From: an uncultured Enterobacterales bacterium
GTDB taxonomy: Bacteria; Myxococcota_A; UBA796; UBA2385
Reading direction: 5' to 3'
Length of the DNA stretch: 64,000 nt
Assembly: GCA_964502005.1 (NCBI GenBank)
Contig: CAZCUX010000001.1
Location: forward strand, 196,653-260,652
The position numbers were made by a program, and so were the translations under genes. This document shows positions 16,201 to 39,645 of the stretch, piece after piece; the first letter of the stretch is position 1; every line of letters begins with the position of its first letter. Under the pieces are notes generated by a model that had not been told where the DNA came from, did no database searches, and saw only the letters and a program-made list of their open reading frames with translations.

Positions 16201-16393
16201 AGGAGGGCTCCGATACAGACGAACGCACGCAGGCGACCGCGTGTGTCCGTAATATAGCCCGCTGTGGCGGCACTCTCGCGGGTCGTTTGGCGGCTTCGCC
16301 ACAAATAGTTGCCGGATTGGCGCGCGCAGGATCGGGAGCGCGCGCGCGAATGTGTCAAACGGCTGGACAGGTCGATATTTTCGCGAGCGCCGG

Positions 16394-17212
16394 TCAGTCT
16401 TCGGGCTGTTCGGGCACATCGAGGCAGAGCCGCTTGAACTCATCGCGGAGGCGTACCTTCAACGCAAAGTCGGGGCGCTCGCTGAGAATCTTCTCGAGAC
16501 CGAGCAAGAGCTGCCGATCGATATCGCGCGGAATCGAAGGGTCTCCCCGGCGGAGCGACTGCACCATGGCGTCAATTTCGTTTTGTGGCGTTGACTGGAA
16601 CACGGCGAGGGCGACCGCTGCTGGAGCATCCTCGTCGTCGGCGACTTCGATATCCAGCGTCGGGAGATTGGCGCGCTCGTCTTGTACCGCGAGGAACTGC
16701 TCGATGAAGCCGCGGGTCCACTCATGGGTCACGTCTGCTTCTTGCAACATCCAGTCCGATTGCGACTGGCGCGCGGGCTCGATTCCGACCAAATGCACGC
16801 GCACGCCAAAGTCTTGCGCGTGTTGCACTCCGACGCGGAGGTCTTCATCGCCGGTGAGCAGCACGGCTGAAGCCATGGCGCGATTGCGCGACAAGTTGAT
16901 CATGTCGGTCACGAGCAAGGAGTCAACGCCCTTTTGCTGTCCTTGCAGGTTGACCAAGCCCAATCGAACTTTCACATCTTGGGAAAATGCGAGGGCCCGG
17001 TGCTGGACGGTAGGGCCGTCGGAAGTGCCGTCGTACCAATAAATCCGAAGCAGGGGGAGGCCCGTGACGGAAAACGCAAACGAACGGATGGCGTCCACCG
17101 CTGCATCAATGTCCAAGTGCAACATACCGCGGGGCCGCTTCTGCCCACATAGGGCGGTGCTTCCTTGGGCAAACAAATAGCCGGCGTCAACAAATACAGC
17201 GCTCCTGTCCAT
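16394..17212 (-). CDS. NYN-domain (LabA/PIN-like) putative ribonuclease with an acidic C-terminal extension
   Basis: AVFVDAGYL...RIYWYDG...QKGVDSLLVTDM...AVLLTGDEDLRVGVQHAQDFGVRVHLVG matches the NYN/LabA acidic-residue pattern. The roughly 100-aa C-terminal part is unassigned. Confidence 0.75.
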   Translation of the reverse strand: MDRSAVFVDAGYLFAQGSTALCGQKRPRGMLHLDIDAAVDAIRSFAFSVTGLPLLRIYWYDGTSDGPTVQHRALAFSQDVKVRLGLVNLQGQQKGVDSLLVTDMINLSRNRAMASAVLLTGDEDLRVGVQHAQDFGVRVHLVGIEPARQSQSDWMLQEADVTHEWTRGFIEQFLAVQDERANLPTLDIEVADDEDAPAAVALAVFQSTPQNEIDAMVQSLRRGDPSIPRDIDRQLLLGLEKILSERPDFALKVRLRDEFKRLCLDVPEQPED

Positions 17213-17729
17213 GAGTATCCGTCTGCTCCCCGAAGAGTGGACCGTCGTAATGGGCCACTATTGCGTACATATTAGGCGGAGGTCGCCGCCGCTTCGTCGA
17301 CCTTTCTTCGAGACGGTATCAGAACCGTTTCAAATAATCAAGAACGCTTCGCCGATCAGAAAGGGTTGTGATTCTGATAGCTTGCATACCGACGTACGAA
17401 TACATGCGTAGAAGGGCAAGGCTACACCGTATATCTTGAGACGCGAATGGGCCGCCCAGGATGGGGGCGCGGTCCCCGGTTCTCAAACCAGCAAAAATGA
17501 AGTATTTTACATGCCGTTCTGCGCCGGCTATGCACCAAGGCCGGCGAAAAGACATGCTTTTGCCACCATGGGAGCGAATCTCAAGCAAAACGTGGGCGGG
17601 CGCATCGGCGCGCCTATTGCCAGGTGGAATCGCTGTATAACGCATATGGGTTATATGCGGTGTCTTTTGCAGCCCTCGGGCGGCCAAACGTTGGGGATGC
17701 CGCCCTCGGGTGGGGAGACCGAAGGCTGT

Positions 17730-17758
17730 AGTATAGCACACTATTTTTGGTTTTGCAA
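17730..17758 (-). promoter_or_regulatory. Strong sigma70-type promoter reading towards the NYN gene
   Basis: The minus strand reads cacTTGCAAaaccaaaaatagtgTGcTATACTac. This gives -35 TTGCAA (17758-17753), a 17-nt spacer, and an extended -10 TGn-TATACT (17735-17730). Confidence 0.55.
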
Positions 17759-17809
17759 GTGCTATACTCGTCGAAAGCGGTGGGCCAACACCTGTCCTTC
17801 GTGGCGTTG

Positions 17810-18301
17810 CTATACGCCGAAGAGGTCGTGGAGATACACGACGATAGCGGCCGCCTCGTCGCTGGTGACGGGAATGGCGGGCATTCCTCGTTTTCCTTCC
17901 AAGATTATTCGAATCACTTCGTCGTCGGAAATCCGACCGATTTCCCGGCTGAGGTCGGGGCCCGAACCGCCGCGCGCGTCTGCGCCGTGGCAAGACAGAC
18001 AATAGGTGGCGTAAAGCGCCTCGCCGTCGGGCGTGGTCCCGTCGCTGCCAGCGCCGCTTTCGCCTCCCGTGCCGTCGCCGCCGGTGCTTCCGTCGCCGCC
18101 GGTGCTTCCGTCGCCGCCGGTGCTTCCGTCGCCTCCGGTGCTGCCGTCATCGCCGGTGCTTCCGTCACTACCGCCGTCGCCCGTTCCATCGTCGCTTCCG
18201 GTGGTTTCGCTGCCGACCGTGCCTTGCGTTGCGGAGTCCTCTTTGTCTCCACATGCAATCATGCCAACCAGCAACAGGGGCAAAAATGACAGTTTACGCA
18301 T
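17810..18301 (-). CDS. Lipoprotein c-type cytochrome (monoheme) with a Gly/Asp/Ser/Thr repeat linker
   Basis: Start ATG 18301. The lipobox is MRKLSFLPLLLVGMIAC. The linker is (GDGSTG)n. The heme motif is CLSCH, with a distal GMPAIP Met. Confidence 0.8.
   Translation of the reverse strand: MRKLSFLPLLLVGMIACGDKEDSATQGTVGSETTGSDDGTGDGGSDGSTGDDGSTGGDGSTGGDGSTGGDGSTGGDGTGGESGAGSDGTTPDGEALYATYCLSCHGADARGGSGPDLSREIGRISDDEVIRIILEGKRGMPAIPVTSDEAAAIVVYLHDLFGV
18080..18169. repeat. 18-bp tandem repeat, about 5 units, inside the cytochrome c gene
   Basis: gccggtgcttccgtcgcc occurs 3 times exactly (18080-18133), followed by two degenerate units. It encodes the GDGSTG repeats on the minus strand. Confidence 0.85.
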
Positions 18302-18618
18302 TGGTATTTCCTTGGATACTATTTTTACGAGGGGATGGGGGATGCCGAAGGGGGCGAGAGGCCGAAACGAAGAACGCCGCTCGGTCACTGGCGAATCGGA
18401 AGCAAGAGGCACATCTTGGGGACGGCCACCGTGCTGTCCAATGTGGTGGGGGAGGGGCGCAGTTGGATATTGCACGTCCGCTACCAATTCGCTGCGTCCC
18501 CTACTTATTTTGACGAGTTTGGGGCAAACACCAACACAAATTGGGCGGATATGTTGTCCCCTGGTTCCGACCGGTCGGCCTTGCCCCAATCTATTCGGAG
18601 ACGGAGGCGGAGCGCCGG

Positions 18619-19146
18619 CTAAGGCAACCAGCCGGTGACCATCAAGCGAAGGTCCCAGCCCGATGTCTGGCCGTTGACCAAAGAATAGGTGCCAAATGTT
18701 TGGTCTGCACCAAATTCAAGCCGACCGCCGACATTCGCGTGGGGGCGATAGCTGCCTCCCAATGCAACGCGATAGCCCGGCCAAGGGCCAGGGTACGCTT
18801 CGTCCCACCAAGCGCTCCGTCCAAACCACGCGCTTGGGCCCACACCAGCGTCGATGCCGAAAATATCGATAGGCTGGTGATACACGCACATAATGGCAGC
18901 TTTGGGGCCCTGGATCCGGAGCTGGTCTTGGGCGTCTTGGCCGCTCATGTAGTCGAGGCGGAGGTTGAGGCGCCAGCCCAGAGGTACTTCGGCTTCTACC
19001 GCAACCCCGGACTTGACGTGTGCAGGTTTTCCGCGGTCGGTGCGCAAGAGTGGCCCCACCGACAGCGTGAGGTCGTTGCGACCTTCTCGGGGGTCGTCAG
19101 CGGCTGCGGCGACCGTCATCCACATGGCCCATGACAACATCAACAT
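18619..19146 (-). CDS. Putative outer-membrane beta-barrel protein
   Basis: A signal-like N-terminus is followed by alternating-residue strands (GWRLNLRLDYMSG, YRVALGGSYR, RLEFGADQTFG, WDLRLMVTGW). Its start overlaps the upstream stop by 1 nt (TGATG at 19144-19148). Confidence 0.5.
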   Translation of the reverse strand: MLMLSWAMWMTVAAAADDPREGRNDLTLSVGPLLRTDRGKPAHVKSGVAVEAEVPLGWRLNLRLDYMSGQDAQDQLRIQGPKAAIMCVYHQPIDIFGIDAGVGPSAWFGRSAWWDEAYPGPWPGYRVALGGSYRPHANVGGRLEFGADQTFGTYSLVNGQTSGWDLRLMVTGWLP

Positions 19147-31134: not shown

Positions 31135-31506
31135 TCACTTCAGCAGTCGCCCGTTCTCGTCGGCCAACACCTGACCCCCATAGATGGGCCAGGGGTACTT
31201 GCTCAGCCACTTCGGCATCGTCCGCAAAATCTCGGGTACGATGTCGTTATCCATGAACTTATCGAGTTTGAAGGTCACGCCGAGAGCCTCGGAACGCTCC
31301 GACTCCTTCTTGAACGCGGCGTCCACCAGTTCTTGGTGTTCCCGGTAGAAGTTATCGGAGTACACGTCAAGCTCCCGACGCATCTCATCCGTTGTACCGA
31401 GAGGTGTCCGGATGGACACCTCTTCGCGGACCAAGAGGTGAAAAACCTTCCTGAAGGTCGTTTCTGCCTTCGCTGCCTTCTTTTTGCCCTTCTTCTTTGT
31501 CTTCAT
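31135..31506 (-). CDS. Small hypothetical protein (123 aa) with a poly-Lys N-terminus
   Basis: Start ATG 31506 (MKTKKKGKKKAAKAETTF...). Codon usage is coding-like. The start overlaps the stop of the upstream small ORF (ATGA at 31503-31506). Confidence 0.65.
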   Translation of the reverse strand: MKTKKKGKKKAAKAETTFRKVFHLLVREEVSIRTPLGTTDEMRRELDVYSDNFYREHQELVDAAFKKESERSEALGVTFKLDKFMDNDIVPEILRTMPKWLSKYPWPIYGGQVLADENGRLLK

Positions 31507-31685
31507 GACACACTCTCCCCATCGGAGACCCACGCGGCCTCAGCCTCCCGGGCGCAGCGGACGGCCGGGGACGCCCCGCGCTTGGCGAAGCGGGACCTCC
31601 TGCGGCCCGCGCCGCCGTTGAACGTGTATTCCTGGGCGTCGACGCCCTGGAGGCCTTTCTGGGTGGCCCGGTTGCGGTCGCGCAT
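31503..31685 (-). CDS. Small basic hypothetical protein (60 aa)
   Basis: AAGGAG lies 6 nt upstream of ATG 31685. Third-position G+C is very high. The ORF is coupled by ATGA to the downstream 123-aa gene. Confidence 0.6.
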   Translation of the reverse strand: MRDRNRATQKGLQGVDAQEYTFNGGAGRRRSRFAKRGASPAVRCAREAEAAWVSDGESVS

Positions 31686-31897
31686 CGGCAACTCCTTCGG
31701 TTAGCGGCGGGGCGGCAGGCTAACCGCCCCCTCACACTCTCATTACGGGGAGGGGGGCGGAGAAGTATACGTTCCGGTGGCGGGAGTGGGCCTTTCCAGC
31801 AGCACGCGGGGCATTCACCAAGGCGCGCTTCGCACCTCGGCGCACGGCGAGGAGGCGTCCGACCATCGCCGGACGCCCTGGGACATAAGCCGGAAGC

Positions 31898-32716
31898 CTA
31901 GCGCCCTTGGAGGCGGTTCACTTCGCGGGCAATGCGTGCGTCTTTGTCGCTCGAAAGCTGCGCCAGCTCGGGCAACGTCGCGGCGCGTGCGGCGTCGAGG
32001 TGCTGGAGGGTCCGCAGCGCCCGGAACCGAACGTCGGCGTCGGGGTCGGCCAAGAGCGCGCGGATTGCGTCGAACGCACCGGTAATGCCTGCATAGCCGA
32101 TGCTGCGTGCCGCCTCTGCGCGCACGGCGGCGCTCTCGTCGTGCAAGGACGGGAACACGAGGTCGGCAAGTGCAGCGCCTTGCTTGTGGTTGCCGACGAC
32201 GCGAATGGCGGCCAGCCGAACGTCTTCGTCGTTGTCGCGTACGGCAAACGTCACGGCTTCCCGCGCGATGTCGACAGGCGCATCGCGCAGCACTTCGACC
32301 ATCATTCGCCGCACGAGGGCGTCTTCTTCGAGCTGCGCCATTCCGGCGACGGCCTCGGTCCAATCTCCGCCGGTTCGCGCCAGCGCGCCCAACAAGCCGA
32401 CGCGGGCTTCGGGGGCGTCTTGGCCGGACGCGATGCGCACGATGAGCGCACCCGCAGCTTCGGGAACGCGCCAATCGGGGTTGGTGAAGAGGGGTTGCCC
32501 GTTCCGGCTTGGCAAGGGGCCGTCGGTCGCGATGGCGTCGGCCAGACCCGGCGCGCCGGAAAGCGAGAGCTCTTCGGCGCTTTCGAGGGCGCGCTGGGCC
32601 CAGGCGGCATCAACGGACGTGAGGGGCGTCGACAGGCCGGCGAGTGCGGAGGGTGCGTAAAACGCGACCGCTGCGACGAACATCCGACCCAAAGAAAGAG
32701 AGGTGAAATCGCGCAT
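31898..32716 (-). CDS. HEAT-repeat protein with N-terminal signal-like segment
   Basis: There are repeated helical units with D-x-D/E-VR motifs: NDEDVRLAAIRVVG, DESAAVRAEAARSIG, DPDADVRFRALRTL and DKDARIAREV. The start lies 3 nt after the PAD-like gene stop. Confidence 0.7.
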   Translation of the reverse strand: MRDFTSLSLGRMFVAAVAFYAPSALAGLSTPLTSVDAAWAQRALESAEELSLSGAPGLADAIATDGPLPSRNGQPLFTNPDWRVPEAAGALIVRIASGQDAPEARVGLLGALARTGGDWTEAVAGMAQLEEDALVRRMMVEVLRDAPVDIAREAVTFAVRDNDEDVRLAAIRVVGNHKQGAALADLVFPSLHDESAAVRAEAARSIGYAGITGAFDAIRALLADPDADVRFRALRTLQHLDAARAATLPELAQLSSDKDARIAREVNRLQGR

Positions 32717-36922: not shown

Positions 36923-38674
36923 GTGAAGGTGACCGTCGAGGGACCGCTGGTGGACGCGGATGCCGCGTGGCGCTTGATTTCCGAGACGGGCTTGTTGTTG
37001 CGCCTCGCGGGCGCGCCGCCGGTACGCATTCGCCTCGCCGAAGACGGCGATGGTGAGGTGATTCCCAGCGGTACGATGCTCGGCCCTGCCGGGCTGCGGC
37101 ACGCATTCGAAGACGCGGGCCTCTCGTGGGTCCGCGGGCAGCACTTGCACCTGGAGCGGCGGATTCAAGGTCCGCTGCTGCGGAGCATTCGCCTGACCGC
37201 GACCCTCACCCCCGCAGACGGCGGAGTGCAGCCGACCCTCACGTTGGAGGTCGAGCCGCGCATCGGCGCGAGCAGCGGCTTGGTTTCCCTCTACACCCGC
37301 GGCGTCGTAAGCGGCTGGAACCGCGAGCTGGCGGCACTTCCGGGGCCGGGACGGATGGGGGAGCCCCGCGTCCGGCGCGCGTTGGACATCACGACACTCG
37401 CGGCCTTGTCGCGGTGGAGCGAGCGCGGCGCAGGAACGGCCCTGCGGGCGCGGGTGGAGCGCTGGATGCGCCAAGCGCCGCTCCGGCAGCTTCGACGCTT
37501 GTCCCCCCTGGGATTGGCCGAAGGTTGGCAAGAGGACGGTGAGCTCGACCGCGCATCGGCGGTGTTGGACGAGTTGGTAGAAGGCATCGCGGCGGGCGCC
37601 CTGGACCTCCATTGGGCGGTGGTTTGCCCGCGCTGTGCCGCGCCTGTGCAGCAAGTCGAGGCCCTCAATCGTCTACCGGAGCAAGCGCGATGCCCGTGGT
37701 GTGGGGTCACGAGCCCGGTAGACCTTGTCTCGACCGTAGAAGCGGTGCTCGCGGCGCCAGGCTGGCTTGGGTCGGGCGAGCCGTCTTGCCACTCGTTGGC
37801 CGCCGCATCGCCGGAAACAGTCGCGGCGGTCTTGTTGTCGCCCCGCAGCGCCCATTCTTTTGCGCTTTCACTCCCGCCAGGGGAGTATCGCCTCGTTGCC
37901 GGTGCGGGTGCCGGACGCCTCGATGGTGTGCTGCAGGTCACCGAGGGCGGCCCTGCTGCGGCCCAATGGACCCCCGGACAGGGTCCGGTGGCTGTGGGGA
38001 CAGGTGTGGTGTCGCTGCTGGTGCAAAACCCCACGGGACGCCGCTTGTTCGTGCGAATGCTCGAAACCTCCGGTTTGCGACCGCGCACACCCGCGTTTGC
38101 GTTGTTGTGCCGACCGCGGTTTCAAGCCCGGCTCGGCGGCCAAGCGCCGGCGCCCGATGTGCTCCTCGCCGTCGGCGATGCCACCGTTATGTTTACTGAC
38201 CTTACCAAGACCGCGCAGTACTTTTATCGCCATGGCGACCGCGCGGGCATTCACCATATTCGGCGTCGTTTGGACATCATCGTGCGGGGCGGCCAATCGG
38301 CCGGCGGCATTCGCGTGAAGACATTGGGCGACGGCGTGCTGATGTTGTTTTCTACGCCTCTGGCCGCAGTGCAGGCGGCGCTCGCGATACTCGCAGGACC
38401 GGCGGCGGGGAAGGGCGATGAGCCCCATTTGCGCGTGGGCATTGCCCGTGGCGCGCTTCTGACCGAACACACCGACGCGGCGGGCTTTGATTGCTCGGGT
38501 GCGACCGTGTCGGAAGCAGCGCGTGCGGTGTACGGCGCGGCGCCCAATCAGCTCAGGATGACGGCCAGCGTCGGAGACCACCCTGCGGTTCGGTCATGGT
38601 TGGCCCATGTGGAAAAGGAAGTATTGACCGACAAAGATGGCCTTCGGACTTTGTGCGTCGAGGCCATTTATTAG
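36923..38674 (+). CDS. Class III adenylate/guanylate cyclase with a large N-terminal region containing a Cys4 zinc-ribbon-like motif
   Basis: GTG start at 36923, 6 nt after the upstream stop. The Cys motifs are CPRC...(20 aa)...CPWC. The C-terminal catalytic blocks are TVMFTDLTKT and IRVKTLGDGVLMLF. Confidence 0.7.
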   Translation: MKVTVEGPLVDADAAWRLISETGLLLRLAGAPPVRIRLAEDGDGEVIPSGTMLGPAGLRHAFEDAGLSWVRGQHLHLERRIQGPLLRSIRLTATLTPADGGVQPTLTLEVEPRIGASSGLVSLYTRGVVSGWNRELAALPGPGRMGEPRVRRALDITTLAALSRWSERGAGTALRARVERWMRQAPLRQLRRLSPLGLAEGWQEDGELDRASAVLDELVEGIAAGALDLHWAVVCPRCAAPVQQVEALNRLPEQARCPWCGVTSPVDLVSTVEAVLAAPGWLGSGEPSCHSLAAASPETVAAVLLSPRSAHSFALSLPPGEYRLVAGAGAGRLDGVLQVTEGGPAAAQWTPGQGPVAVGTGVVSLLVQNPTGRRLFVRMLETSGLRPRTPAFALLCRPRFQARLGGQAPAPDVLLAVGDATVMFTDLTKTAQYFYRHGDRAGIHHIRRRLDIIVRGGQSAGGIRVKTLGDGVLMLFSTPLAAVQAALAILAGPAAGKGDEPHLRVGIARGALLTEHTDAAGFDCSGATVSEAARAVYGAAPNQLRMTASVGDHPAVRSWLAHVEKEVLTDKDGLRTLCVEAIY

Positions 38675-38688
38675 CGGCGCCAAACAGT

Positions 38689-38717
38689 AATATAGCACAT
38701 GTTTTCGAGATTTGCAA
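38689..38717 (-). promoter_or_regulatory. Second copy of the TTGCAA-N17-TGnTATAYT promoter-like module
   Basis: The minus strand reads cacTTGCAAatctcgaaaacatgTGcTATATTact. The geometry and flanks match the module at 17730-17758. It lies in the gap between convergent genes and points into the 3' end of the cyclase gene. Confidence 0.4.
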
Positions 38718-38790: not shown

Positions 38791-39645
38791 CTAAAGGTCC
38801 TCGTTGAGCACGCCAAATCCCCCTTGCACAAACTCGCGCAGGTATCGGAAATCGCTGGTCCGTGCCTCTTCAGGCGTTCCTTGAAACGCGATGCGTTTGT
38901 CGTATACCATCGCCAACCGGTCCGTCACGGTGAAGACCGTGTCCATATCGTGCGTCACCACAATAGAAGTAACGCCCAGCTTCTCTTGCAACGACAAGAT
39001 AATCGTGTTGATTCGCCGCACGTTGACGGGGTCAAGGCCGGTGGTGGGTTCGTCATACAAGATAACTTCTGGCTTGATGGCAATCGCCCGTGCTAGCCCG
39101 ACGCGCTTTCGCATTCCGCCCGATAGCTGCGCGGGCTTTTTGTTTTCGATGCCTGGCATGTCAACCATTTCGAGGACTTCGGCCACGCGGGCGTCCATCT
39201 CGGCCTCGGTGCCCCAGCCGTGCTCCCGCAGCGGATACTTGATGTTTTCTGCGACGGACATCGAGTCGAAGAGCGCAGCACCTTGAAACAGCATCGCGAC
39301 GCGGCTTCGCAATCGCAGCAGCGCCGTTTCGTCCATCTCGGCTACGTTTTCGCCGAAAACGCGGATATTGCCCCGGTCGATTTCAAGGAGTCGAATCAGG
39401 AGCTTGAGCATTACGCTCTTTCCGACACCGGACCCGCCGATGATGGTCAAGGTCTCGCCGGGGTATACGTCGAGGTCGAGTCCTCGGTAAATGTTGAGGG
39501 CGCCGAAGGATTTGTGCACATCCCGAAAGGTAATGATGGGCGTGGCACCTGGCCGTTCATGGGGACGAACGCGGTCGGCAGCGCGAAAGGCCTCGGCGCG
39601 CTCGCGAACGTGTGCAGGCAGGTCGGGCGAGGGGGCGTGGGACAT
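38791..39645 (-). CDS. mlaF: MlaF-like ABC transporter ATP-binding protein
   Basis: Walker A is GGSGVGKS. The signature is LSGGMRKRVGLARA. Walker B is ILYDEPTTGLD. The overall pattern is that of MlaF/Ttg2A. Confidence 0.8.
   Translation of the reverse strand: MSHAPSPDLPAHVRERAEAFRAADRVRPHERPGATPIITFRDVHKSFGALNIYRGLDLDVYPGETLTIIGGSGVGKSVMLKLLIRLLEIDRGNIRVFGENVAEMDETALLRLRSRVAMLFQGAALFDSMSVAENIKYPLREHGWGTEAEMDARVAEVLEMVDMPGIENKKPAQLSGGMRKRVGLARAIAIKPEVILYDEPTTGLDPVNVRRINTIILSLQEKLGVTSIVVTHDMDTVFTVTDRLAMVYDKRIAFQGTPEEARTSDFRYLREFVQGGFGVLNEDL

What the first reader, a model, noticed from the sequence alone, without database searches (positions are those of the whole stretch)
17213..17809. About 0.6 kb of AT-richer, highly structured non-coding DNA with a strong promoter, upstream of the NYN nuclease gene: long leader or ncRNA candidate
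No protein-like ORF occupies 17213-17809. My hand count gives about 55% G+C for 17491-17610, against about 70% in typical genes. A near-consensus promoter on the minus strand (TTGCAA-17-TGcTATACT, 17758-17730) would start transcription near 17723 and read about 510 nt before the NYN start codon at 17212. That transcript contains many clean hairpins. Examples in plus-strand coordinates are GGGCGGC 17678-17684 with GCCGCCC 17699-17705, flanked by direct CCCTCGGG repeats. Others are CGCATAT 17641-17647 with ATATGCG 17653-17659, and ATCAGAA 17355-17361 with TTCTGAT 17372-17378. A ribonuclease-family gene preceded by a long structured RNA is an unusual pairing and could be a cis-regulatory leader or an independent RNA partner.
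Basis: seen in the sequence. Interest (0 to 1): 0.6.

Follow-up and report, generated by a model that had tools for sequence, protein, structure and literature searches.

The report
Composite spacer upstream of NYN gene
The 0.6 kb gap is not one long structured RNA: only the 185 bases next to the NYN gene are conserved, probably as its promoter and short leader, and they replace a widespread small RNA, apparently undescribed, that precedes the same gene in most other bacteria.

Summary
The interval 17213-17809 is non-coding, AT-richer than the window (54.8% vs 62.2% G+C) and enriched in short perfect hairpins. The promoter-like site is real-looking. As a whole it does not fold better than shuffles (z -1.4), and no Rfam family matches.

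Comparison with the only close relative (L003, NYN 93% identical) splits it into three parts.
- **17213-17398:** 88-90% identical where silent sites are 54% identical. It has no conserved ORF and no unusual folding energy. It is most likely the NYN promoter/operator (TTGATT-17-TACCGT) plus a ~94-nt 5' UTR.
- **17399-17639:** unalignable and SNP-rich, so a spacer.
- **17640-17809:** a significantly structured hairpin cluster (z -3.8) straight after the cytochrome c stop codon. It embeds TTGCAA-17-TGcTATACT, which has a near-twin at 38.7 kb.

Orthologous NYN genes carry a covarying two-hairpin RNA that starts at the predicted transcription start site. It was found in at least 55 of 80 genomes and 14 of 19 viral contigs. 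It is absent from Rfam, and two literature searches found nothing. The window lacks it (best 2.7 bits).

The parts
17213..17398 (-). Conserved non-coding block directly upstream of the NYN start codon. Proposed to be promoter/operator plus 5' UTR.
   Evidence: It is 88-90% identical to L003, while NYN third codon positions are 59% and 4-fold sites 54% identical. No frame is open in both genomes across the whole block. The frame open in both over its distal part is rejected as coding. nhmmer finds it in no other NYN locus.
17313..17341 (-). Candidate proximal promoter: -35 TTGATT (17341-17336), 17-nt spacer, -10 TACCGT (18-13). Predicted TSS near 17306.
   Evidence: Read from the sequence. Both hexamers are identical in L003, and the two local substitutions fall in the spacer. 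The -35 lies 129 nt from the ATG, inside the 98-166 nt range (median 119) seen for TTGAC to ATG in 33 orthologous loci. It is a weak consensus match, below the scan threshold. This is inference.
17213..17306 (-). Predicted ~94-nt 5' UTR. It holds hairpin A (AGGUCG..CGACCU, 17303-17280), hairpin B (GUGGCCC..GGUCCAC, 17258-17237) and a CUC-UUCG-GGG mini-hairpin over the GGGGAG stretch (17237-17226).
   Evidence: Folding gives MFE -25.3 kcal/mol and z +0.37, so it is not unusually stable. The last 28 nt of the UTR and the first 26 nt of the CDS are identical in L003, silent sites included. No compensatory change is available to test the hairpins.
17290..17355 (-). Direct repeat TCGGCGAAGCG (17355-17345) and TCGaCGAAGCG (17300-17290), 55 nt apart. 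They flank the candidate promoter and are possible protein-binding sites.
   Evidence: (D4). Both copies are the perfect 11-mer in L003. The word itself is not enriched in the window (8 matches vs 4.5 expected). Weak evidence.
17399..17639 (.). Poorly constrained spacer.
   Evidence: 17399-17549 cannot be aligned with L003:1-151. Three of the five differences to contig L002 lie at 17543, 17568 and 17581. Local folding z ranges from -1.8 to +0.3.
17640..17809 (-). Structured hairpin cluster immediately after the cytochrome c stop codon. It comprises a hairpin at about 17801-17772, a 10-bp inverted repeat at 17768-17730, a Y-shaped GC-rich element at 17727-17671 and a hairpin at 17659-17641.
   Evidence: Folding 17630-17815 on the minus strand gives MFE -65.1 kcal/mol, z -3.76, with 0 of 200 shuffles as stable. 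Repeats are (I1, I3, I16). No U-tract follows on the minus strand, so the scan calls no intrinsic terminator there.
17730..17758 (-). Distal sigma-70-type promoter-like site TTGCAA-17-TGcTATACT. Predicted TSS near 17723.
   Evidence: One search gives 9 of 12 matches plus TG. It has a near-twin at 38717-38689 (CACTTGCAAA..AAAA..TGTGCTATAyTAC). The pattern occurs twice against 0.04 expected, with 0 of 100 shuffles reaching that. Its -10 is one arm of the 10-bp inverted repeat. Contig L002 from another sample ends at 17724.
16394..17212 (-). NYN/LabA-like gene (272 aa) served by the element.
   Evidence: Pfam PF01936, E 1.6e-11. The AlphaFold model has pLDDT 87, and its best PDB match is 2qip, a Vibrio parahaemolyticus protein of unknown function. 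Acidic residues D9, D97, D103, D122, E123 and D124 are invariant in 23 homologues.
17810..18301 (-). Upstream cytochrome c lipoprotein gene whose 3' end borders the hairpin cluster.
   Evidence: Pfam Cytochrome_CBB3, E 8.9e-14. NCBIfam gives cytochrome c551/c550-like matches below the cut-off.

Best explanation
The interval is a composite intergenic region with three parts that behave differently.

1. **17213-17398.** This is the control region of the NYN gene. It holds a weak sigma-70-type promoter (TTGATT-17-TACCGT, predicted TSS near 17306), flanked by an 11-nt direct repeat, plus a ~94-nt 5' UTR and translation-initiation region. I propose it is read by sequence, through a DNA- or RNA-binding regulator that could be the NYN protein itself, and not through a stable RNA fold. 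It occupies the place of the two-hairpin RNA that precedes orthologous NYN genes in most other lineages.
2. **17399-17639.** This is unconstrained spacer.
3. **17640-17809.** This is a cluster of stable hairpins at the 3' end of the cytochrome c transcript, probably acting as termination or stabilising structures. It embeds a genuine-looking extended -10 promoter. That promoter may add a long-leader NYN transcript or make a short RNA.

Shown: the conservation pattern, the absence of coding potential, the folding statistics, the promoter twin, and the absence of the family motif. Inferred: the transcription start sites, the regulator, and the terminator role.
For: - **Conservation split.** The proximal 185 nt are 88-90% identical to L003, against 54% at 4-fold sites, and the sequence beyond 17398 cannot be aligned.
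- **SNPs.** Differences to a second sample cluster in the middle part (Fisher P 0.006).
- **Not coding.** The plus-strand ORF is broken twice in L003, and the upstream-ORF ATG is lost there. The minus-strand frame has flat GC3 (0.51 vs 0.70-0.73 in real genes). By my reading in the frame, 9 of 9 changed codons are non-synonymous.
- **Proximal promoter.** Both hexamers are conserved and the substitutions lie in the spacer. The distance to the ATG fits the family range, and hairpin A starts about +3 of the predicted TSS, as P1 starts at the TSS in the family.
- **Constraint across the start codon.** The sequence is identical from -28 to +26 around the ATG, silent sites included.
- **Folding.** The conserved part has z about 0. 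The cytochrome c-proximal part has z -3.8. Its largest structure starts at 17727, upstream of the predicted TSS at 17723, so it forms completely only in read-through from cytochrome c.
- **Distal promoter.** The pattern occurs twice against 0.04 expected.
Against: - Only one close relative exists. No covariation test is possible, and the far part 17550-17809 has no comparator at all.
- The proximal promoter is a weak consensus match (TACCGT as -10) and was not called by the scan.
- None of the minus-strand hairpins has a U-tract, so a terminator role is not demonstrated.
- The strong distal promoter, and a contig from another sample that ends 1 nt from its predicted TSS, are what a real 510-nt leader would also produce.
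- No transcript data are available.
Confidence: 0.5

Rival explanations
1. Transcription starts near 17723 from TTGCAA-17-TGcTATACT and reads a single ~510-nt structured cis-regulatory leader into the NYN gene.
For: - The promoter is significant as a pair.
- Short perfect hairpins are enriched.
- Contig L002 ends at 17724.
- The Bryobacterales locus L029 shows that about 1 kb of non-coding DNA holding RNA elements can precede this gene.
Against: - 17399-17549 cannot be aligned with L003 although the adjacent 185 nt are about 90% identical.
- SNPs cluster at 17543-17581.
- The whole-leader folding z is -1.38, and the conserved part has z about 0.
- No Rfam match.
- In 33 orthologous loci the promoter sits 98-166 nt from the ATG.
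Confidence: 0.2
2. The distal promoter makes a short, independent structured RNA, roughly 17723 to 17640. This RNA would be the functional counterpart of the family's NYN-associated small RNA, that is, an RNA partner of the nuclease.
For: - The promoter is followed at once by very stable structure (z -3.8 to -4.1).
- In the family, the RNA is a promoter-proximal unit whose P1 starts at the TSS. It also occurs free-standing with its own promoter (L029 and L036).
- The twin promoter at 38.7 kb is also followed by a hairpin.
Against: - No terminator-like U-tract lies downstream on the minus strand.
- The outer stem of the main structure begins upstream of the predicted TSS.
- The family model scores only noise here, 2.6 bits for 17672-17685.
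- No comparative data exist for this stretch.
Confidence: 0.13
3. The conserved 17213-17306 leader is a strongly diverged homologue of the family's two-hairpin NYN RNA. Hairpin A would correspond to P1 and hairpin B to P2, and the leader would work the same way.
For: - The gene family is the same, and the nearest NYN relatives carry the motif or a variant of it.
- Hairpin A begins about +3 of the predicted TSS, as P1 does. It starts with AAGGUCG, as in L007 and L031.
- A CUCUUCGGGGAG stretch recalls the P2 sequence GGCUCCUUCGGGAGCC.
- L004 has the same architecture yet is also missed by the model, so the model's reach is limited.
Against: - A filters-off cmsearch gives at best 2.7 bits, and that hit lies outside the leader.
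- The conserved loop (GACUA..AAU), the linker (YUACUA), the 7-10-bp GC-rich P2 and the U-rich tail are all missing.
- The leader is not thermodynamically stable.
Confidence: 0.1
4. A small protein gene explains the conservation. The candidates are the minus-strand ORF ending at 17319 and the plus-strand ORF 17211-17411.
For: - The minus-strand frame has only 1 stop in 198 codons.
- It is also open over all 77 codons of L003:1-231 and ends at the same stop codon.
Against: - GC3 is 0.51, against 0.70-0.73 in neighbouring genes.
- All 9 changed codons in the alignable part are non-synonymous, and changes spread 4/5/4 over codon positions (my reading in the frame).
- There is no similarity upstream of 17398.
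- No Pfam match.
- The plus-strand ORF carries 2 stops in L003.
- The most conserved stretch (17213-17318) lies outside the minus-strand ORF.
Confidence: 0.03

Closest known systems
Two-hairpin RNA upstream of NYN/LabA-like genes
   Same: The downstream gene family is the same. The position is the same, between a sigma-70-type promoter and the NYN start. The promoter-to-ATG distance is similar, and a hairpin begins at the predicted TSS.
   Different: The window lacks the defining P1 loop, linker, GC-rich tetraloop P2 and U-rich tail. It scores noise against the model. Its leader is not unusually stable.
Autoregulatory 5' UTRs of ribonuclease genes (E. coli rne 5' UTR, Rfam RF00040; rnc and pnp leaders). 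Named from general knowledge.
   Same: A conserved non-coding leader precedes a nuclease-family gene. Feedback by the encoded enzyme is a plausible mechanism.
   Different: There is no sequence or structure similarity: no Rfam hit even at E <= 10. RNase activity and self-binding of this NYN protein are untested.
Type III toxin-antitoxin loci (ToxIN, CptIN, TenpIN). Named from general knowledge.
   Same: For the family motif, the layout matches: promoter, small structured RNA, terminator-like hairpin, then a nuclease gene. The module also occurs on viral or proviral contigs and next to integrases.
   Different: The window has no tandem RNA repeats and no terminator before NYN. NYN is not a ToxN-type fold. 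No PADLOC model matches.
Intrinsic terminators and 3'-UTR stabilising hairpins
   Same: The hairpin cluster 17640-17809 begins within 10 nt of the upstream gene's stop codon and is far more stable than shuffles.
   Different: No U-tract follows any minus-strand hairpin. Termination is inferred, not shown.

Membership tests
Any Rfam 15 family | Score at or above the family's gathering threshold | tested here: not met
   There were no matches in the whole window at gathering thresholds. In 17000-18700 at E <= 10, only two chance-level hits appeared, both outside 17213-17809.
NYN-associated two-hairpin RNA (model R1) | Significant score against the covariance model (members score 20-79 bits) | tested here: not met
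   Neither the window nor L003 gave a hit at E <= 1. With filters off, the best score is 2.7 bits (E 2.6), and it is not in the conserved leader.
NYN-associated two-hairpin RNA (model R1) | P1 of 8-11 bp with a loop that starts GACUA and ends AAU, then a YUACUA or CAUAA linker | tested here: not met
   Hairpin A has 6 bp with the loop ACGAAGCGGCGG, followed by a 21-nt linker. Compare the members.
NYN-associated two-hairpin RNA (model R1) | GC-rich 7-10-bp P2 with a UNCG-type tetraloop and a U-rich tail, 10-60 nt before the NYN start | tested here: not met
   Only a 3-4-bp CUC-UUCG-GGG element is present, with no U-tail. No minus-strand terminator was called in the interval.
NYN-associated two-hairpin RNA (model R1) | Location between a sigma-70-type promoter and an NYN/LabA-like gene, with the first hairpin starting at the TSS | tested here: inconclusive
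   The candidate TTGATT-17-TACCGT lies 129 nt from the ATG, within the family range of 98-166. Hairpin A starts about +3. The promoter is weak and the TSS is only predicted.
Sigma-70-type promoter (distal site 17758-17730) | -35 and -10 hexamers at 17-nt spacing, with a TG extension | tested here: met
   9 of 12 matches plus TG. The pattern occurs twice in the window against 0.04 expected.
Sigma-70-type promoter (distal site 17758-17730) | Transcripts start about 7 nt downstream of the -10 | not testable with these tools
   No transcript data are available. The only hint is that contig L002 ends at 17724.
Intrinsic terminator (for the cytochrome c gene) | GC-rich stem followed by a U-tract on the transcribed strand | tested here: not met
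   Stable stems are present, but no minus-strand site in 17640-17809 passes the stem-plus-T-run scan.
Type III toxin-antitoxin locus | Tandem direct repeats of the antitoxin RNA upstream of the toxin gene | tested here: not met
   TRF finds no array in 17100-17809. The repeat finder gives only short two-copy families.
Small protein-coding gene | An ORF kept in the relative, with a coding composition and substitution pattern | tested here: not met
   The plus-strand ORF is broken in L003. The minus-strand frame has flat GC3 and only non-synonymous changes.
Mobile element or repeat (MITE/REP) | Further copies in the genome, or similarity to plasmid or phage DNA | tested here: not met
   No second copy exists in the 64-kb window beyond the 35-nt promoter twin. 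There is no blastn match in plasmids or phages.

The most novel reading that the evidence does not exclude
NYN/LabA-like nucleases and the small structured RNA encoded just upstream form a conserved, mobile RNA-protein module. It could be an autoregulatory RNA-protein unit or a type III toxin-antitoxin-like pair. The window's lineage would then have swapped the canonical RNA for a new one with the same job: either the conserved 185-nt block or the structured RNA behind the distal promoter.
Probability: 0.15. Interest if true: 0.7.

Novelty: new member of a known kind. Interest (0 to 1): 0.4.

Why it matters
**In the window.** The result is modest. It is a lineage-specific, strongly conserved promoter and 5'-UTR block for an uncharacterised nuclease-family gene. 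Next to it lie a 3'-end hairpin cluster and a credible promoter type for this poorly sampled organism, whose nearest named relatives are Myxococcota at 58% identity.

**In the family.** The same NYN gene is preceded in many phyla, and on viral contigs, by a covarying ~70-nt two-hairpin RNA with its own promoter. That RNA is not in Rfam 15, and two full-text searches found no description. It gives a concrete handle on the unknown function of bacterial LabA-like NYN proteins. The window is a natural "motif-replaced" variant for comparison.

Tried and rejected
- **Rfam.** Nothing relevant in the window or in 12 related loci.
- **tRNA/tmRNA scan.** None found.
- **Closer relatives.**
  - The single-protein genome scan found none.
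  - The full-length protein search gave only P0001 above 57% identity.
  - The N-terminal 85-aa search gave at most 71%.
  - A conserved 28-mer had no match in JGI metagenomes.
  - Covariation analysis of the window's own leader was therefore impossible.
- **Leader profile.** nhmmer with the window+L003 leader found nothing in 86 loci.
- **Family model.** It scored noise in the window.
- **Small-protein hypotheses.** Rejected.
- **Repeat or mobile element.** No copies in the window, and no plasmid or phage similarity. No tandem repeats.
- **Function of the NYN protein.**
  - PADLOC, NCBIfam and PDB sequence searches gave nothing.
  - The fold search gave only 2qip, a protein of unknown function. 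The C-terminal four-helix part stayed unmatched.
- **Known operators.** I compared the conserved block by eye with LexA-type boxes recalled from memory. None fitted, and this was not pursued.
- **First MAFFT alignments of the family RNA.** A3 and A4 misaligned P1, and RNAalifold recovered only P2. A trimmed core set, A5, was needed.

Full report
**Setting**

The interval 17213-17809 lies between two minus-strand genes. Upstream is a cytochrome c lipoprotein gene (17810-18301; Pfam Cytochrome_CBB3, E 8.9e-14). Downstream is an NYN/LabA-like gene (16394-17212; PF01936, E 1.6e-11). The window is 62.2% G+C and the interval is 54.8%, the 1st percentile of 597-nt windows. The "70% in typical genes" is too high.

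The organism is poorly sampled. An identical iPGM protein sits on a 575-kb NCBI contig. The next relatives are 72% identical, and the nearest named ones are Myxococcota at 58%.

**Checking the observation**

- Perfect hairpins of at least 7 bp with 3-20-nt loops number five. Shuffles give 0.68 (P about 0.003) and the window averages 1.19 per 597 nt, so the interval is in the top 1.5%.
- The promoter-like site TTGCAA-17-TATACT with a TG extension is at 17758-17730.
- That site has a near-twin at 38717-38689, sharing CACTTGCAAA..AAAA..TGTGCTATAyTAC. The pattern TTGCAA-N14-TGnTAnnnT occurs exactly twice in 64 kb against 0.04 expected.
- "Highly structured" does not hold for the whole. The 513-nt putative leader has MFE z -1.38 on the minus strand and -1.75 on the plus strand.
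- In 120-nt windows only 17613-17772 stands out on the minus strand, at z -2.3 to -4.1.
- No Rfam family matches in the window, and there are no tRNA or tmRNA genes.

**Comparative evidence for the window itself**

Contigs L001 and L002 come from the same genome at 100% and 99.87% identity. The only other close relative in 5.8 billion protein clusters is P0001, at 93% amino-acid identity. All other homologues are at or below 57%. An N-terminal query found nothing closer. The P0001 contig, L003, carries 337 nt upstream of NYN.

In the NYN coding sequence, third codon positions are 59% identical and 4-fold sites 54%, so neutral DNA is close to saturation. Against that background:
- 17213-17397 is 88-90% identical.
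- 17398-17549 cannot be aligned.
- The sequence is identical from 28 nt before to 26 nt after the ATG, silent sites included.
- Of the five differences between the window and L002, three fall at 17543, 17568 and 17581 (Fisher P 0.006).

Selection therefore acts on the NYN-proximal 185 nt and not on the middle of the interval. The part from 17550 to 17809 has no comparator.

**Is the conserved block coding?**

No.
- The plus-strand 66-aa ORF (17211-17411) has two stops in L003.
- The upstream-ORF ATG at 17270 is lost in L003.
- One minus-strand frame is oddly open in both genomes and ends at the same stop codon. Its GC3 is 0.51, against 0.70-0.73 in neighbouring genes.
- By my reading of the alignment, all nine changed codons in that frame are non-synonymous, and changes spread 4/5/4 over codon positions.
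- The two peptides share nothing upstream of 17398.
- The most conserved stretch lies outside this ORF.

The scarcity of stop codons in that frame remains unexplained.

**Is the conserved block a stable RNA?**

It is not detectably so.
- 17213-17332 has z about 0.
- The predicted 94-nt UTR has z +0.37.
- The one perfect hairpin inside the block (ATCAGAA/TTCTGAT) is broken in L003.
- Hairpins A (17303-17280) and B (17258-17237) are neither disrupted nor supported. The two substitutions in B fall on an internal mismatch.

**What the gene family shows**

An alignment-based scan of GTDB genomes returned 80 loci with NYN homologues at 40-66% identity. They come from Acidobacteriota, Gemmatimonadota, Verrucomicrobiota, Myxococcota, Alpha- and Gammaproteobacteria, Chloroflexota and Rhodothermales. 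Most carry the same two-hairpin element just upstream of the gene:
- **P1:** 8-11 bp, with a loop that begins GACUA and ends AAU.
- **Linker:** YUACUA or CAUAA.
- **P2:** GGGCYCC-UNCG-GGRGCCC, usually followed by a U-rich tail.
- **Downstream:** 10-60 nt further on comes the start codon.

Support for the structure:
- On a MAFFT alignment of 19 core sequences, the structure is 89% paired. Eleven of 15 pairs change on both sides, and 0 of 500 shuffles reach this.
- A covariance model, R1, finds the element at E < 0.01 in at least 55 of the 80 loci, always on the gene's strand.
- On 47 model-aligned hits, 93.5% of cells pair and 13 of 15 pairs show double changes. That alignment is fitted to the model, so it leans towards the structure.
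- A TTGAC -35 box lies 32-40 nt before P1 in 28 of 33 loci, so P1 starts at the predicted TSS. The -35 lies 98-166 nt (median 119) from the ATG.

Distribution of the element:
- Free-standing copies with their own promoters occur in L029 and L036.
- Fourteen of 19 NYN loci on IMG/VR contigs have it.
- The one metagenome hit to a motif-derived pattern is again followed by an NYN gene.
- Rfam 15 has no family for it, and two full-text searches found no description.

**The window is not a member**

Neither the window nor L003 gives a hit. With filters off, the best score in 16300-18700 is 2.7 bits, and it lies outside the conserved leader. nhmmer with the window+L003 leader finds nothing in the other loci. 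The model's reach is limited, however. L004, the next-closest NYN at 57%, has the same architecture but is also missed.

By analogy, the window has TTGATT-17-TACCGT at 17341-17313. Both hexamers are identical in L003, and the local substitutions sit in the spacer. The site is 129 nt from the ATG, and hairpin A begins about +3 of the predicted TSS. An 11-nt direct repeat (TCGGCGAAGCG) flanks this promoter at a 55-nt spacing and is perfect in L003. This is the basis for reading 17213-17398 as promoter/operator plus a ~94-nt UTR. It is an inference.

**The cytochrome c-proximal part**

Folding 17630-17815 on the minus strand gives -65.1 kcal/mol and z -3.76, with 0 of 200 shuffles as stable. It forms four hairpins that start within 10 nt of the stop codon. 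The distal promoter's -10 is one arm of a perfect 10-bp inverted repeat.

The largest element, at 17727-17671, begins 4 nt upstream of the predicted TSS. It can therefore form completely only in transcripts coming from cytochrome c. No U-tract follows any of the hairpins, so a terminator or stabiliser role is plausible but unproven.

The promoter itself is probably real, given its twin. Contig L002 ends at 17724, 1 nt from the predicted TSS, which may or may not be meaningful.

**The NYN protein**

The AlphaFold model has pLDDT 87. It matches only 2qip, a Vibrio parahaemolyticus protein of unknown function. Acidic residues are invariant across 23 homologues. No PADLOC, NCBIfam or PDB sequence match was found. 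Its substrate is unknown, so any feedback mechanism is hypothetical.

**Verdict**

The interval is composite: a conserved NYN control region, a free-drifting spacer, and a structured 3' flank of the upstream gene with an embedded promoter. A single 510-nt structured leader is the less likely reading, at about 0.2.

The most interesting outcome lies outside the window. It is an apparently undescribed small RNA tied to this NYN gene family, which the window's lineage has lost or replaced.

Noticed in passing
L007:2921-2988, L010:2410-2478, L023:2395-2463, L024:2413-2480 and about 50 further loci (alignments A5, A7; model R1): A covarying ~70-nt two-hairpin RNA with its own TTGACA-type promoter sits directly upstream of NYN/LabA-like genes in many phyla. 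It is in no Rfam 15 family, and two literature searches found nothing.
   Followed up: yes
L029:1662-1727 and 1854-1916; L036:3569-3628 (minus strand): These are free-standing extra copies of that RNA, not followed by an NYN gene. The two L029 copies each have their own promoter-like site, inside about 1 kb of non-coding DNA upstream of the L029 NYN gene. They suggest an independent small-RNA unit and not only a leader.
   Followed up: partly
L036, L054, L063 (Rhodothermales), the ~180 nt upstream of the NYN start: Three to five tandem GC-rich hairpins (GGGGGCCUC..GAGGCCC, spaced by AAACA) lie in front of the NYN gene. They form an array-like variant of the P2 hairpin.
   Followed up: no
L090-L108 (IMG/VR contigs); L004:1539-2750: NYN homologues occur on 19 viral or proviral contigs, and 14 of them carry the RNA. 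Phage-type integrase genes lie next to NYN in L004 and on the P0003 contig. The module looks mobile.
   Followed up: partly
window 38689-38717 (minus), with downstream 38590-38684: This is a near-twin of the distal promoter. It sits about 70 nt after the stop of an ABC ATPase gene (38791-39645) and is followed by the hairpin AUGGCCU..AGGCCAU and a U-rich stretch. It would transcribe antisense to the 3' end of the plus-strand gene 36923-38674, so it may make a short antisense RNA.
   Followed up: partly
window 17724 and 17543-17581 (contig L002, Logan SRR23848398): A contig from another sample ends 1 nt from the TSS predicted for the distal promoter. Three of its five SNPs cluster in 39 nt of the spacer. 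The sample type is unknown.
   Followed up: partly
window 17213-17809, minus-strand frame of ORF 17319-18002 and plus-strand frame of ORF 17436-18005; L003:1-231: One frame on each strand has only 1 stop in 198 codons, against 5-8 in the other frames. The minus-strand frame is also open across L003 and ends at the same stop codon. Composition and substitution pattern say it is not coding. The cause is unexplained.
   Followed up: yes
window 18072-18166: An 18-nt tandem repeat of 5.3 copies (92% matches) lies inside the cytochrome c lipoprotein gene and encodes a Gly/Asp/Ser/Thr linker. It is the likely reason contig L001 ends at 18101.
   Followed up: no
window about 31150-31900: A second stretch has 5-6 perfect short hairpins per 597 nt, as dense as the finding itself.
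   Followed up: no
window 16201-16393 vs L003:1157-1349: The spacer after NYN keeps conserved blocks: a CCCGC..GCGGG hairpin followed by CTATATT, and the region before the next gene's start. This looks like the promoter and ribosome-binding region of the downstream 176-aa lipoprotein gene.
   Followed up: no
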